Of a DNA stretch of 64,000 bases, positions 1,195 to 5,547 are shown one piece after another. The translations under genes and the position numbers were made by a program. The stretch's first letter is position 1. Every line of letters begins with the position of its first letter. Below the pieces are notes generated by a model. The model was not told the origin of the DNA, did not search any database, and saw nothing but the letters and a program-made list of their open reading frames with translations. The stretch lies in contig OY970212.1 of assembly GCA_963713925.1 (NCBI GenBank), forward strand, positions 352,001 to 416,000. Direction: 5' to 3'. The stretch comes from an uncultured bacterium. GTDB taxonomy: Bacteria > Babelota > Babeliae > Babelales > Vermiphilaceae.

Positions 1195-1866
1195 GTGAAA
1201 AAATCTCTACTATTACTTTCGTTGTTTATGTTTTCAGTGCGAGCAGATGCTGATCTTGATCGTTATTTGAGATCAACGTCCAGCAGAGCGACGCTCGAAT
1301 CTCCGGTGCTTGCGTTGATCGATGGATTGGCAATGGGTATTGATGGTCAGAAAATCGGTTTTATGTTGCGAGTCAGAAGAGATTTGCAAAAAATACAAGG
1401 TGTGCGATCGCATGAAGATCATTCGATTTCTCACGAAGGAATTTTTGAGTTTGATGGAAAGCTTTATTCTATTCATGGGCTTGCAACTATGGAACATCTT
1501 GCTTTAGAAAATCATGATTCAGAAATGGTCGCAAGACTTCATACTATTCTTGGTGATGCGCGCAGCTATTTCTTGGCAAAAGTGAAACAGTTCATGTCGG
1601 TTGCTCGCGGTTCAAAACGTCAGATGTTGTTACTTATTGAAGAATGGTGTGCAAAGAATAAGCGAGCAAAAAGTATTTTGCTTCGCTGGGGCGGGACAAA
1701 AGACGGCGATGAAGATCGTCAATTCCATGCGGATGCAACTTCATTTATACACTTTGATGAATTTTGCACTGATCTGATATTCTTTATAGAAGATTTGATT
1801 CGCAGCTGTCCGAAGGCATTTGCACAATTTAAGCAAATGATTGAGAAGCAACAAGAAAATAAGTGA
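1195..1866 (+). CDS. Secreted hypothetical protein
   Basis: GTG start after GAGGA; signal-peptide-like N-terminus. Confidence 0.7.
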   Translation: MKKSLLLLSLFMFSVRADADLDRYLRSTSSRATLESPVLALIDGLAMGIDGQKIGFMLRVRRDLQKIQGVRSHEDHSISHEGIFEFDGKLYSIHGLATMEHLALENHDSEMVARLHTILGDARSYFLAKVKQFMSVARGSKRQMLLLIEEWCAKNKRAKSILLRWGGTKDGDEDRQFHADATSFIHFDEFCTDLIFFIEDLIRSCPKAFAQFKQMIEKQQENK

Positions 1867-1920
1867 AGCTCGCGCGGCCTAAAGGCCGTGGCTTTCTTAT
1901 TTAATAAAATAGTCTCAAAT

Positions 1921-2307
1921 CGTTCGTGGTGAGCGTAGTGCAACGAAGTCGAACCATACGAACAAGAAAATAGATATGCAAAATTTTTATGTATATATTC
2001 TTCAATGCAGTGATAACTCATATTACACTGGCCATACCGATAATATCGAGCTACGAATTCAAGAACATCAAAGCGGTCGGTATCAAGGTTATACCGCGAC
2101 ACGCCTGCCGGTACAACTAGTTTTAGTTGAAACAATGGCTTCTCGTGCGGATGCTTTGGAAGCAGAAATGCAAATTAAGAAATGGTCACGCAAGAAAAAA
2201 GAGATTCTTATTAAATATGGATGGCAGGGAATGAAAAGCTTTGCAAAACAATACAAGTAAGAAAGTTCGTATGGTTCGACTTCGTTGCACTACGCTCACC
2301 ACGAACG
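1921..2307. mobile_element. Putative GIY-YIG element bounded by perfect 43-bp inverted repeats (family A)
   Basis: 1921-1963 is the exact reverse complement of 2265-2307; only the nuclease ORF lies between. Confidence 0.7.
1976..2260 (+). CDS. GIY-YIG nuclease (small YhbQ/UPF0213-like)
   Basis: YVYILQC..YYTGHT..R..HQ.G..YT..R.PV.LV..E..AL..E.QIKKW motif pattern. Confidence 0.92.
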   Translation: MQNFYVYILQCSDNSYYTGHTDNIELRIQEHQSGRYQGYTATRLPVQLVLVETMASRADALEAEMQIKKWSRKKKEILIKYGWQGMKSFAKQYK

Positions 2308-2340
2308 CCTATACATCACACAAAAAAAATTGATTACATT

Positions 2341-4515
2341 ATGAATGAATTACAATTGAGTGGTACTGTTGAGCGACATCTTTTTCAAAACTCTGAAAAC
2401 GGTTACGCAGTTTCTGTGATAAGTGTTTCTGATCGACAAACCATTGTTGTCAAAGGTCACATGGCGCATGTGCAACCAGGTGAACAAGTACTGGTCACTG
2501 GCGCATGGGTGCAGCATCCCAAATTTGGCAAGCAGTTTGAGGCTGCAACATGTGTCACGCAAGTTCCCACAAGCCTTGTGGGGCTCAAAAAATATTTGGG
2601 CTCAGGTCTCATTAAGGGAATTGGTCCATCATACGCACAACGATTAATTGATGCATTCGGTTCACAAGTGCTCGAAGTCATAGATAAGCATCCGGAAAAA
2701 TTGACGCTTGTTGAAGGAATTGGTCAAAAGCGAGCGCAAGAGATTACCACTGCTTGGCAATCGCAAAAAGATATCGCTTCCATTATGGTCTTTTTACAAG
2801 AGAAGGGCGTTTCCCCTGCGTATGCGGTTAAGATTTATAAAAAATATGGACAAGCTTCTATTGCGATGGTGCAAGAAAATCCGTATCGCTTGGCGGAGGA
2901 TATTTGGGGAATAGGTTTTAAGCTTGCAGATCAAATTGCGCAAGCGATTGGTATTGCTTCCGATTCATTAAAACGGGTGATGGCTGCTTATTTGCATCAA
3001 TTATCAGTAGAAGCCTCAAGCGGGCATTTATATTCGTTCATTGAGCCTCTCAAACAAAAGACGGCACAATTGCTCGAGTTTGATCTGCAAGAACAAGCGC
3101 AGAAGCTCAAGAATGCGTTACATCAATTGCATGATGAAGGTAAGATTAAACTGATCAGCAGTGGTGATGAACATTACATTGGGTTGGCGTTACATTATTT
3201 TACCGAAAAAAATGTTGCCGATCGTATCAAACTTCTTTTAAGCCAGTCTCCTACCGTCAGCTACGATACGAACGTGATATACAACAAACTGCGCGCTCCA
3301 GATGCGAACAAAAAAATTCATCTCAATGAAGATCAACAGCATGGCATTGTCACGGCATTATCGCATCAAATATCGATCATCACGGGCGGACCGGGGACCG
3401 GTAAAACGACATTAATTAAAGAGTTGCTTGATATTATTGATGAACACAGGGCTGTGTACCGGCTTGCTGCTCCCACCGGACGCGCAGCAAAACGAATCAC
3501 TGAGGGCACGCAGCGCAATGCGGCGACAATACATCGATTGCTCGAGTTTGATTTTTTAACGCATCGATTTTTGAAAAATGAACAAAATGCGCTCAAGGTT
3601 GATTTTCTTATCATCGATGAATCATCAATGCTTGACGTGTTTCTCATGCATAGTGTACTGAAGGCAATTCCGTTTGGTGCGCGTGTTGTTTTTATCGGTG
3701 ACATTGATCAGCTCCCGTCAGTCGGGGCCGGCAATGTGTTGCATGATATGATTGTCAGCGGCGTTGTGCCGACGGTGCGTCTCAAAACAATATTCCGACA
3801 AGCCCAAGACAGTATGATTGTAGTCAACGCTCACCGCGTAAATAGCGGTCAATTCCCGCTCGGCTATCAAGAAGGTGCGCGCAGAGATTTTATTTTCATC
3901 AAAGAAGAGAACCCCGAACAAGCGATGACACACATTCGGGAGCTTCTGCTCAAGCGGCTTGGCCTTCATGGCATGCGTGCCGAGGATGCAACGATCTTGG
4001 TGCCTATGAACAAAACAATTGTCGGCGCACAAACGATGAATGCACAGCTGCAGGAGTTACTCAATCATAATCAAGAACGTGTGGAACATCATGGCACGAC
4101 CTTTAAAATGGGTGATCGAGTCATGCAGATTCGCAACAATTACGATAAAATCGTGTTTAATGGCGATGTTGGCATCATAGAAGAAATAACGTCTGAAAAA
4201 AAGTTGCGCGTGAATTATTCCGATCGGATCGTTGAATACGAATTCAATGAGCTCGATGAGTTAACGCTCGCCTATGCAATGACGATTCATAAAAGCCAGG
4301 GATCGGAATATCCGGCGGTGATCATTCCGATTTTTATGCAACATTTTACTCTTTTGCAACGAAATTTGGTGTACACTGCAATTACGCGCGCTAAGCGTTT
4401 GTGTGTTCTGATCGGGCAAACGAAGGCAATTGCGATGGCCATTAACAATGACAAAGGAACGGTTCGATTAACATTGCTGAAACAATTTTTAACTTCGGAT
4501 CTTGCGTGTCGATGA
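2341..4515 (+). CDS. recD2: ATP-dependent RecD-like DNA helicase RecD2
   Basis: HPKFGKQF, HhH repeats (IKGIG, VEGIG), Walker A GGPGTGKT, TIHKSQGSE, YTAITRA; start moved to ATG 2341. Confidence 0.93.
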   Translation: MNELQLSGTVERHLFQNSENGYAVSVISVSDRQTIVVKGHMAHVQPGEQVLVTGAWVQHPKFGKQFEAATCVTQVPTSLVGLKKYLGSGLIKGIGPSYAQRLIDAFGSQVLEVIDKHPEKLTLVEGIGQKRAQEITTAWQSQKDIASIMVFLQEKGVSPAYAVKIYKKYGQASIAMVQENPYRLAEDIWGIGFKLADQIAQAIGIASDSLKRVMAAYLHQLSVEASSGHLYSFIEPLKQKTAQLLEFDLQEQAQKLKNALHQLHDEGKIKLISSGDEHYIGLALHYFTEKNVADRIKLLLSQSPTVSYDTNVIYNKLRAPDANKKIHLNEDQQHGIVTALSHQISIITGGPGTGKTTLIKELLDIIDEHRAVYRLAAPTGRAAKRITEGTQRNAATIHRLLEFDFLTHRFLKNEQNALKVDFLIIDESSMLDVFLMHSVLKAIPFGARVVFIGDIDQLPSVGAGNVLHDMIVSGVVPTVRLKTIFRQAQDSMIVVNAHRVNSGQFPLGYQEGARRDFIFIKEENPEQAMTHIRELLLKRLGLHGMRAEDATILVPMNKTIVGAQTMNAQLQELLNHNQERVEHHGTTFKMGDRVMQIRNNYDKIVFNGDVGIIEEITSEKKLRVNYSDRIVEYEFNELDELTLAYAMTIHKSQGSEYPAVIIPIFMQHFTLLQRNLVYTAITRAKRLCVLIGQTKAIAMAINNDKGTVRLTLLKQFLTSDLACR

Positions 4516-4555
4516 TGAAATCAGACCTATTGCGAAATTAAAAAAAATTGTTCTC

Positions 4556-4746
4556 CGTTCGTGGCGAGCAGAACGGGTTCCCGATCGTAGCGTAAGTGTA
4601 GATTGGGGTTAAAACGTAGTGCAGTCGAACCATACGAACAAAAAAATAAATGTGCATGTATATAGCGGGAAATGAAAAATTTTGTAAAAAAGATACAAAA
4701 AAAGTTCGTATGGTTCGACTCCGTTGCACTCCGCTCACCACGAACG
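4556..4746. mobile_element. Non-autonomous internally deleted derivative of the family A element
   Basis: Inverted repeats 4556-4639 (with 41-bp insert) and 4704-4746; 64-bp interior resembles both ends of the GIY-YIG interior. Confidence 0.7.
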
Positions 4747-4812
4747 GTTGGAAACTAGTTTATTAGGATTTTCAAAAATTCAACGGACTCTAAATATCGA
4801 GAATGTATAATT

Positions 4813-5547
4813 ATGAATTATAATAGTTTCGCAGTGGGCATATTGAATCGAATGTATCTGATGACGTCGGTATTTCTTTTTGGCGCCGTTTTTGCTCGTG
4901 TAAAAATTCCGATGTACACACAAGTCGATTCGATCGAATCGAATCAGCGTCGTGACCCTATTATCATTATGATTGATCCGTACGGCGATGTGCGCTCAAG
5001 TGGTCGCGTGATCGGAAACAAATTTGAATCTGAATTAACCTATGCATGTGCGCAGAAACTGAAACAAGATCTGGAACAAGAATATGATCATGTCACTGTT
5101 GTTATCAGCCGAACGGTTGGAGAACAATCGTATGAGCTCGCACGCGCGCAGTATGCAAACAGATTACAGGTGCACGGATTTCTTTCTATTCAGTTTTTTC
5201 ATGAAACAAACCCTATTGCGCGATGGTTTATGTATCGATATTGCCAACAAGCACTTCCCGAATTTCAGGCGCAAAAGCACAGCATTTTATCAGTTGATCA
5301 AGCCTATCTGCTCAATAAGAATATCACTGATGCATGGGCACAGCGGGTTGATAAGCTTTTAGAACGAAATGAACTCAAGCGATTTGAGCCGCAAGGTCTG
5401 ATCTCCGTGCCATGCACCCCACTCAAAGGAGTCCTGCCCCCGGCATTATTGTGTGAAGTTGGATTGAAGTCGCCTGATGATTGGACTGTCGCCTGCGCTC
5501 AGATGAAAGAGATAATCAAAGCATTAATCGATCTGTGTGCGGAGTAG
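4813..5547 (+). CDS. N-acetylmuramoyl-L-alanine amidase (Amidase_3)-like, degenerate active site
   Basis: IMIDP, E..LT, R...AN, FLSIQ, LCEVG order; the Zn-ligand histidines are absent. Confidence 0.7.
   Translation: MNYNSFAVGILNRMYLMTSVFLFGAVFARVKIPMYTQVDSIESNQRRDPIIIMIDPYGDVRSSGRVIGNKFESELTYACAQKLKQDLEQEYDHVTVVISRTVGEQSYELARAQYANRLQVHGFLSIQFFHETNPIARWFMYRYCQQALPEFQAQKHSILSVDQAYLLNKNITDAWAQRVDKLLERNELKRFEPQGLISVPCTPLKGVLPPALLCEVGLKSPDDWTVACAQMKEIIKALIDLCAE

What the first reader, a model, noticed from the sequence alone, without database searches (positions are those of the whole stretch)
4556..4746. MITE-like internal-deletion derivative of the GIY-YIG element
Seen: the same inverted-repeat pair (right copy has 2 mismatches to 2265-2307) encloses only 64 bp. 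The interior start AAAAAAATAAATGTGCATGTATATA resembles AAGAAAATAGATATGCA...TGTATATA at the nuclease 5' end. The interior end GCGGGAAATGAAAAATTTTGTAAAAAAGATACAAAAAAA resembles GCAGGGAATGAAAAGCTTTGCAAAACAATACAAGTAAGAAA at its 3' end. Inference: the whole repeat-gene-repeat unit was copied and then lost its interior, giving the autonomous/non-autonomous pairing typical of transposons. This is the best evidence that the gene travels with the repeats.
Basis: partly seen in the sequence, partly recalled or inferred. Interest (0 to 1): 0.8.

Follow-up and report, generated by a model that had tools for sequence, protein, structure and literature searches.

The report
Gutted nuclease cassette inside transposon ends
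This 191-base element is a real gutted copy of a nearby tiny DNA-cutting gene with its flanking hairpins, found at five places in the genome, but the copied piece runs on to the end of an ordinary insertion sequence, so it likely spread as that transposon's cargo rather than by the nuclease's own action.

Summary
Deletion confirmed; the inference from it needs correcting. 4640-4703 is the first 17 and last ~47 bases of the interior of the arm-GIY-YIG-arm cassette at 1921-2307 (2 of 5000 shuffles as good). Four siblings share the junction or its 3' side and the same derived bases: one deletion, then copying. The left arm is not a plain copy (45-nt insert), and the arms are a REP-like family (~75-100 copies) without target duplication. 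Identity with the two closest siblings continues 46 bp past the right arm and stops at TA after a 20-bp motif, the terminal repeat of an IS5 element in relatives; 27 of 56 arm loci have it facing inward, none outward. A second genome holds 11 gutted copies of its own cassette, 9 beside IS982 ends; such shells show 6-8 bp duplications. So gutted copies likely ride in IS-derived MITE shells moved by DDE transposases since lost. Against: all five siblings show the IS5 end on one side only. Gene-arm linkage is real (62 of 96 homologue loci); the protein is UPF0213-like, with the layout of the published Ssn system. The scan noted this cassette type and gutted copies before on other DNA.

The parts
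1896..1920 (-). Linker A beside the left arm of the intact cassette (homologous to 4747-4770); no IS5 end follows it here, an unrelated hairpin stands in its place
   Evidence: 62-nt inverted match 1902-1963/4704-4765; alignment; TIR score low
1921..1963 (+). Left hairpin arm of the intact cassette (43 nt)
   Evidence: perfect inverted pair with 2265-2307
1976..2260 (+). 94-aa single-domain GIY-YIG nuclease gene, UPF0213-like; second copy at G000:141650-141931 (81% aa)
   Evidence: Pfam PF01541 E 1.5e-17; PDB 1zg2 E 6.7e-17
2265..2307 (-). Right hairpin arm of the intact cassette
4522..4555 (+). Left flank of the gutted copy: a repeated end-like motif plus short A-rich linker, shared with the sibling at G000:1252942 and with single-arm loci; parent element not identified
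   Evidence: no parent found
4556..4639 (+). Left arm of the gutted copy, 84 nt
4570..4614 (.). 45-nt hairpin of a second repeat family sitting in the loop of the left arm
4640..4656 (+). 5' stub: leader and start of the nuclease gene (matches 1964-1980, 14 of 17)
4657..4703 (+). 3' stub: last codons and trailer of the nuclease gene (matches about 2217-2264)
4704..4746 (-). Right arm, 2 mismatches to 2265-2307
4747..4770 (+). Linker A, shared by sibling copies
4771..4792 (-). IS5-family terminal inverted repeat (4771-4790) followed by TA (4791-4792); similarity among siblings ends here
   Evidence: same motif ends intact IS5 elements in relatives; matrix score 22.7

Best explanation
4556-4746 is a gutted copy of the hairpin-nuclease-hairpin cassette, one of five siblings from a single deletion, and it was likely spread as cargo inside an IS5-derived miniature transposon whose right end lies at 4771-4792. 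Steps: (1, shown) a cassette of two inward hairpin arms around a 94-aa GIY-YIG gene is widespread and sits here at a site that is empty in relatives. (2, inferred from Ssn by analogy) the enzyme nicks single-stranded DNA at its own hairpins, which seeds arms at new sites and lets arms recombine. (3, shown as anatomy, inferred as history) a cassette came to lie between IS5 ends. (4, junction shown, cause inferred) one deletion between the short ATATG matches at the start and near the end of the gene removed ~240 bp. (5, inferred) a DDE transposase, no longer detectable in this genome, copied the IS5-bounded unit to TA sites. (6, inferred) later exchange between arms and nested insertions replaced the left ends and flipped the interior relative to the linkers.
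For: Shared junction region and derived bases in 5 copies. Two closest siblings 41-42 of 46 identical from arm end to TA, 8-15 of 40 beyond. The motif ends intact IS5 elements in G031 and G020 (NF033580, 259 bits). With a matrix trained only on relatives' IS ends: 27 of 56 arm loci have an inward end within 200 bp, 0 outward; 1 of 27 and 0 of 15 loci of the two other hairpin families in the same genome; 8 of 10 gene- or stub-bearing loci. No duplication at arm ends in 18 pairs (0.61 vs 0.70 permuted). Independent parallel in G017: 11 gutted copies with several junctions, 9 of 11 with an IS982-type end, 6 on both sides; IS982-type shells show exact 6-8 bp duplications in 14 of 39 (0.8 expected), like intact IS982 (4 of 10). 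In G010, G016, G020 arms are dispersed but no clear gene stubs came up.
Against: All 5 siblings show the IS5 end on the right only; only 3 of 56 arm loci pass the threshold on both sides, and a DDE transposase needs two ends (established knowledge). Left flanks are of two different types. One sibling (G000:1252942) is only 21-23 of 46 identical in the linker-plus-end stretch. The intact window cassette and one gutted locus (G000:315959) have no detectable IS5 end, nor do 2 of 11 G017 copies have an IS982 end. TA is too short to test as a duplication. The 6-8 bp test was chosen after a fixed 7-bp test gave nothing. G020 has intact IS5 with this end and also has arms, yet its pattern hits look like IS ends only. 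No cognate transposase in G000.
Confidence: 0.55

Rival explanations
1. One reading: the arms are the ends of a minimal transposon, the GIY-YIG protein moves both the intact and the gutted unit, and the IS ends are only neighbours or favoured targets.
For: 62 of 96 homologue loci in many phyla have inward arms on both sides, 0 of 179 control windows; intact genes rarely have either IS end type nearby (2 of 22 in this lineage, 0 of 71 others); both window sites are empty in relatives; arms disperse in G010 without visible shells; siblings have an IS5 end on one side only.
Against: Similarity among copies passes the arm and stops at the IS end in two genomes with two IS families; no duplication at arm ends; SsnA was shown to cut ssDNA, and mobility was offered as a hypothesis only (PMC11893778); GIY-YIG domains are known as hydrolytic nucleases without strand transfer (my own knowledge).
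Confidence: 0.2
2. IS shells and arms were scattered first; the gutted interior then spread between existing loci by gene conversion or recombination through arm homology, started by nuclease nicks or by the host's RecA, with no transposition of the gutted unit itself.
For: Two left-flank types on one interior; interior flipped relative to linkers A and B when the siblings are compared with the intact copy at G000:141562; hairpin inserts in arm loops differ among siblings; gene order around the window copy is conserved, which fits conversion rather than rearrangement.
Against: Four of five siblings share the same variant of the IS5 end together with linker, arm and stub, which a tract ending exactly at TA explains less simply than transposition; stub-bearing G017 shells keep exact duplications in 3 of 8, though conversion inside a shell would keep them too.
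Confidence: 0.22
3. The interior match is chance similarity of A-rich sequence.
For: The 5' stub alone is not significant; one unrelated interior also scored 0 of 500 in the genome-wide test.
Against: 2 of 5000 and 0 of 5000 shuffles; siblings keep clearer matches and a shared junction.
Confidence: 0.01

Closest known systems
Ssn nucleases with NTS/SRM hairpins (SsnA, cd10448; Chenal et al. 2025, PMC11893778)
   Same: Single-domain ~94-aa GIY-YIG gene between inverted hairpin repeats that are also dispersed in the genome; the authors note the layout resembles an insertion sequence.
   Different: Other protein group (nearest solved relatives are UPF0213; separate in the tree from this genome's GTC-hairpin-flanked nuclease) and another hairpin (published SRM pattern 0 of 96 loci). 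The paper's main text has no occurrence of 'MITE'; I saw no gene-stub derivatives or IS shells in the parts read; supplements not seen.
IS-derived MITEs and mobile insertion cassettes (IS5 and IS982 families; e.g. IS982-derived MITECca01, PMC9769881; terms in PMC3129680)
   Same: 200-350 bp non-coding units with IS ends and, for the IS982 type, target duplications; moved in trans.
   Different: The interior is not a remnant of the IS but hairpin arms of a nuclease cassette, at times with the gene or its stubs; the cognate transposase was not found in G000, and no IS982 above cut-off in G017.
REP/REPIN with RAYT (PMC3116915, PMC3733652, PMC3184786; passages read)
   Same: Imperfect palindromes as singlets and inverted doublets between genes, nesting into one another, enzyme gene flanked by inverted copies.
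   Different: Partner is a GIY-YIG nuclease, not a Y1/HUH transposase; the only Y1 match in the genome is a short fragment without these arms.

Membership tests
Ssn/SRM | Single-domain GIY-YIG protein of about 90-100 aa | tested here: met
   94 aa, PF01541 only
Ssn/SRM | CDD cd10448 assignment / Ssn clade | not testable with these tools
Proxy points away: best solved matches are UPF0213; quick tree separates it from the GTC-hairpin-flanked group (no bootstrap)
Ssn/SRM | Flanking repeat fits the published SRM pattern | tested here: not met
   0 of 4 window arms, 0 of 96 close loci; weak test, since the pattern also missed the GTC hairpins around G000:104371
Ssn/SRM | Gene flanked on both sides by inverted hairpins that are dispersed in the genome | tested here: met
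   stem covaries, 124 of 134 arms paired vs 74.5 shuffled, kinship not corrected
Ssn/SRM | Site-specific cleavage of single-stranded DNA at the hairpin | not testable with these tools
   needs purified protein
   18 pairs, mean 0.61 vs 0.70 permuted
   runs 46 bp past the right arm
IS5-derived MITE | Terminal repeats of a known IS at both ends | tested here: inconclusive
   right end yes (22.7), left end no (-3.0) for this copy; both ends at other arm loci
IS5-derived MITE | Short, non-coding, several copies | tested here: met
   5 siblings
IS5-derived MITE | Target duplication of the family (TA; recalled for the IS427 group, seen at intact elements) | tested here: inconclusive
   TA follows the right end in all siblings shown; too short to test
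IS5-derived MITE | Cognate transposase in the genome | tested here: not met
   none in G000, 95.75% complete; present in relatives
REPIN/RAYT | Inverted doublets of short palindromes between genes | tested here: met
REPIN/RAYT | Y1/HUH transposase gene flanked by the same repeats | tested here: not met
   one Y1 fragment, no arms beside it

The most novel reading that the evidence does not exclude
Hairpin-nuclease cassettes are a general MITE factory: a UPF0213-like GIY-YIG enzyme plants its hairpins in resident insertion sequences, recombination between arms replaces the transposase gene with the cassette, and the IS ends then carry the nuclease gene and its gutted copies around. This would be a two-tier parasite in which a single-strand nuclease hijacks DDE transposons (IS5 here, IS982 in relatives) and disarms them, and a second, very widespread branch of programmable-like ssDNA nucleases beside Ssn.
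Probability: 0.25. Interest if true: 0.75.

Novelty: new variant of a known kind. Interest (0 to 1): 0.45.

Why it matters
Whether small GIY-YIG genes between hairpins are mobile by their own enzyme was left open by the Ssn paper. Gutted copies look like proof of self-mobility, but here and in a second genome their boundaries point to IS transposases, so such copies should not be counted as evidence without checking the flanks. The locus also gives a clean test set: a defined 43-nt candidate substrate for an untested nuclease branch, and a defined IS5-bounded unit for a mobilisation assay.

Tried and rejected
Rfam on 1800-4900: no match. NCBIfam on the nuclease: no family. Single arms fold no better than shuffles as DNA (z -0.1 to -1.1); the whole unit does (z -4.4), as expected from the arm pair. 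Fixed 7-bp duplication test on IS982-type shells: not significant for G017 (699 of 5000) or metagenome loci (1630 of 5000), 45 of 5000 for 5 loci of other relatives; lengths proved to vary, and the 6-8 bp test followed (3 short spurious pairs dropped by a 190-bp floor; one row of the 'intact' control is probably not an IS). An IS4-like element first taken for the source of the G017 ends proved to be inserted into a shell. Generic search for outer inverted repeats around intact genes: 2 of 59 and 1 of 58, but the positive control found only 1 of 8, so it is uninformative. Parent of the left-flank motif 4522-4540 not found in 61 and 251 genomes; the one hit was coding sequence. DNA search with 4540-4800 in 60 relatives: only short weak hits, so no close strain for an exact empty site. 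Sequencing runs: no RNA holder listed; the one DNA holder re-found a paralogous gutted locus and may be the source sample, so it is not independent. Promoter scan: 2 sites vs 1.0 expected. The careful tree did not finish; only the quick tree was seen. Literature searches that found no description of this cassette or of the nesting: (open-access library only; supplements of PMC11893778 not read and could list this repeat).

Full report
Observation. The window holds a perfect 43-nt inverted pair (1921-1963, 2265-2307) around a 94-aa ORF with a single GIY-YIG domain. At 4556-4746 a second pair encloses 64 bp; its right arm differs from 2265-2307 at 2 positions, but the left arm is 84 nt because a 45-nt hairpin sits in its loop. 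A global alignment with a free long gap scores 49.6 against the cassette interior; 2 of 5000 shuffles of the small interior and 0 of 5000 of the large one reach it. The 3' stub carries the signal (9 of 5000); the 5' stub alone does not (1261 of 5000).

It is a family. The genome (1.32 Mb, one contig) has a second intact cassette at 141562 (88% nt, 81% aa). Of 20 head-to-head arm pairs, 2 are intact and 7 more have interiors matching the cassette in at most 1 of 500 shuffles, 1 more in 12 of 500; one of the 7 belongs to a spacer family whose other members do not match and is probably chance. The window copy and those at 1113268, 1252942, 1274732 and (right half only) 1111396 share the junction region and derived bases absent from both intact copies, and are mostly closer to each other (35-44 of 47) than to the intact copies (32-38 of 47). 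The junction joins two ATATG-like stretches, at the start codon and near the end of the gene, so one microhomology deletion followed by copying is the simplest history (inference). Other junctions occur at 1204545 and 315959, and a one-armed 5' piece at 1126422.

The arms are REP-like. 75 complete arms match a strict pattern, 0 in a shuffled genome; 56 loci include singlets, head-to-head and tail-to-tail pairs, often with other hairpins in the loop. There is no duplication at arm ends in 18 pairs. Among 96 close homologue loci from several phyla (80, the rest; edge loci left out; one pair identical), 62 have an inward arm on both sides and 81 at least one arm; 0 of 179 control windows do. The central stem covaries: 124 of 134 arms paired against 74.5 after shuffling, kinship not corrected. 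The protein's nearest solved relatives are UPF0213 proteins. The genome also has two other stand-alone GIY-YIG genes, each beside its own repeat family; the quick tree keeps the three apart.

Both window units are insertions. In relatives, recD2 and the amidase gene were adjacent in 22 of 29 loci, overlapping by 10 nt in 15 and within 54 bp in 21, against 297 bp here; the upstream gene and recD2 were within 30 bp in 23 of 29, against 354 bp here, and none held the nuclease.

The copied unit does not end at the arm. With the two closest siblings, identity from the right arm to position 4792 is 41-42 of 46 and falls to 8-15 of 40 beyond; the third is 21-23 of 46. The last 20 bases before TA form a motif that in relatives ends ~870-bp elements encoding an IS5-family transposase. 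A matrix trained on relatives' ends only gave 47 hits above 14 in this genome against 5 in a shuffle; 27 of 56 arm loci have one facing inward within 200 bp and none outward, against 1 of 27 and 0 of 15 loci of the other two repeat families; 8 of 10 gene- or stub-bearing loci have one. But only 3 loci pass on both sides, and all five siblings have it on the right only. Their left flanks are of two types, and the interior is flipped relative to the two linkers when compared with the intact copy at 141562, which requires exchange between arms. No DDE transposase was found in the genome.

A second genome repeats the pattern with another IS. Four relatives were searched with their own cassettes. 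G017 has 11 gutted copies with several junctions, three sharing one; similarity again passes the arms and ends at a terminal repeat that, in metagenome contigs, bounds ~980-bp elements with an IS982 transposase. 9 of the 11 have it on at least one side, 6 on both. A fixed 7-bp duplication test failed; allowing 6-8 bp, chosen afterwards, 14 of 39 shells have exact duplications against 0.8 expected, stub-bearing ones 3 of 8, intact IS982 4 of 10. G010, G016 and G020 have dispersed arms but no clear stubs in the hits returned (G016 is 69% complete; at most 40 candidates were scored). Intact genes seldom have either end type nearby: 2 of 22 in this lineage, 0 of 71 elsewhere; other IS types were not testable.

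Mechanism. I commit (0.55) to a two-tier history: the nuclease likely nicks its hairpins as single-stranded DNA, as SsnA does (PMC11893778: abstract, parts 2-4 and Discussion read), which seeds and swaps arms; a cassette came to lie inside IS5 ends, lost its middle once, and was likely copied by a DDE transposase since lost. Rivals are self-mobilisation by the nuclease (0.2) and conversion among existing shells (0.22); the one-sided ends keep both alive. No enzyme activity or movement was shown here.

Relation to what is known. It works like Ssn/SRM and REPIN/RAYT in layout, and like an IS-derived MITE in its outer boundary (PMC3116915, PMC3733652, PMC3184786, PMC9769881, PMC3129680: passages only). 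It fails the SRM pattern test and has no RAYT. Eight searches of the open library found no account of this hairpin-nuclease branch or of its nesting in IS ends. Earlier notes of this scan describe the same type of cassette and gutted copies on other DNA; their summaries do not mention IS shells. Verdict: real, new variant of a known kind, moderate interest; the gutted copy is not evidence that the nuclease moves itself.

Noticed in passing
G000:104200-104830 (L005): Second stand-alone GIY-YIG gene flanked by GTC-tagged hairpins (43 pattern hits genome-wide); looks like an Ssn-type system by layout, though the published SRM pattern misses these hairpins.
   Followed up: partly
G000:1102620-1103050 (L002): Third small GIY-YIG gene just downstream of what looks like a tRNA gene (by eye), with its own repeat (18 hits); close repeat pairs at 404875/405098 and 1191612/1191826 may be its gutted copies.
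   Followed up: no
G000:634754, 777147, 880883, 900165, 1012285, 1163897, 1197063, 1271667, 1293125, 27463: A larger family of arm pairs sharing a 43-51 bp spacer that does not match the nuclease gene; origin unknown, several inside IS5 ends.
   Followed up: partly
window 4570-4614 and arm loops genome-wide: Two further hairpin families sit in arm loops, at times three deep; no enzyme was linked to them.
   Followed up: partly
window 1868-1895; G000:1113540, 1274910: A hairpin resembling IS200/IS605 ends (recalled) stands where the IS5 end would be at three cassette loci; the only Y1 transposase match is a fragment at 735855.
   Followed up: partly
L148 (G047), L324, L327 (G008): IS5- and IS982-type shells filled with GTC-tagged (Ssn-like) hairpin pairs instead of these arms, so the nesting is not limited to one hairpin family.
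   Followed up: partly
L325:1500-2780 (G017): An IS4-like element with an 8-bp duplication inserted into the left linker of an IS982-type shell; five copies of its transposase in G017.
   Followed up: partly
G000:1253014-1253667; window 2221-2340: The 3' stub of a sibling opens a frame running through the arm into the next gene; the intact cassette does the same into recD2. Probably incidental.
   Followed up: no
L159 (G026), L185 (G017): Independent arm insertions at the same two gene junctions as in the window.
   Followed up: no
window 34239 and 60831: Two more arms in the window; the first lies between two IS5 ends.
   Followed up: partly
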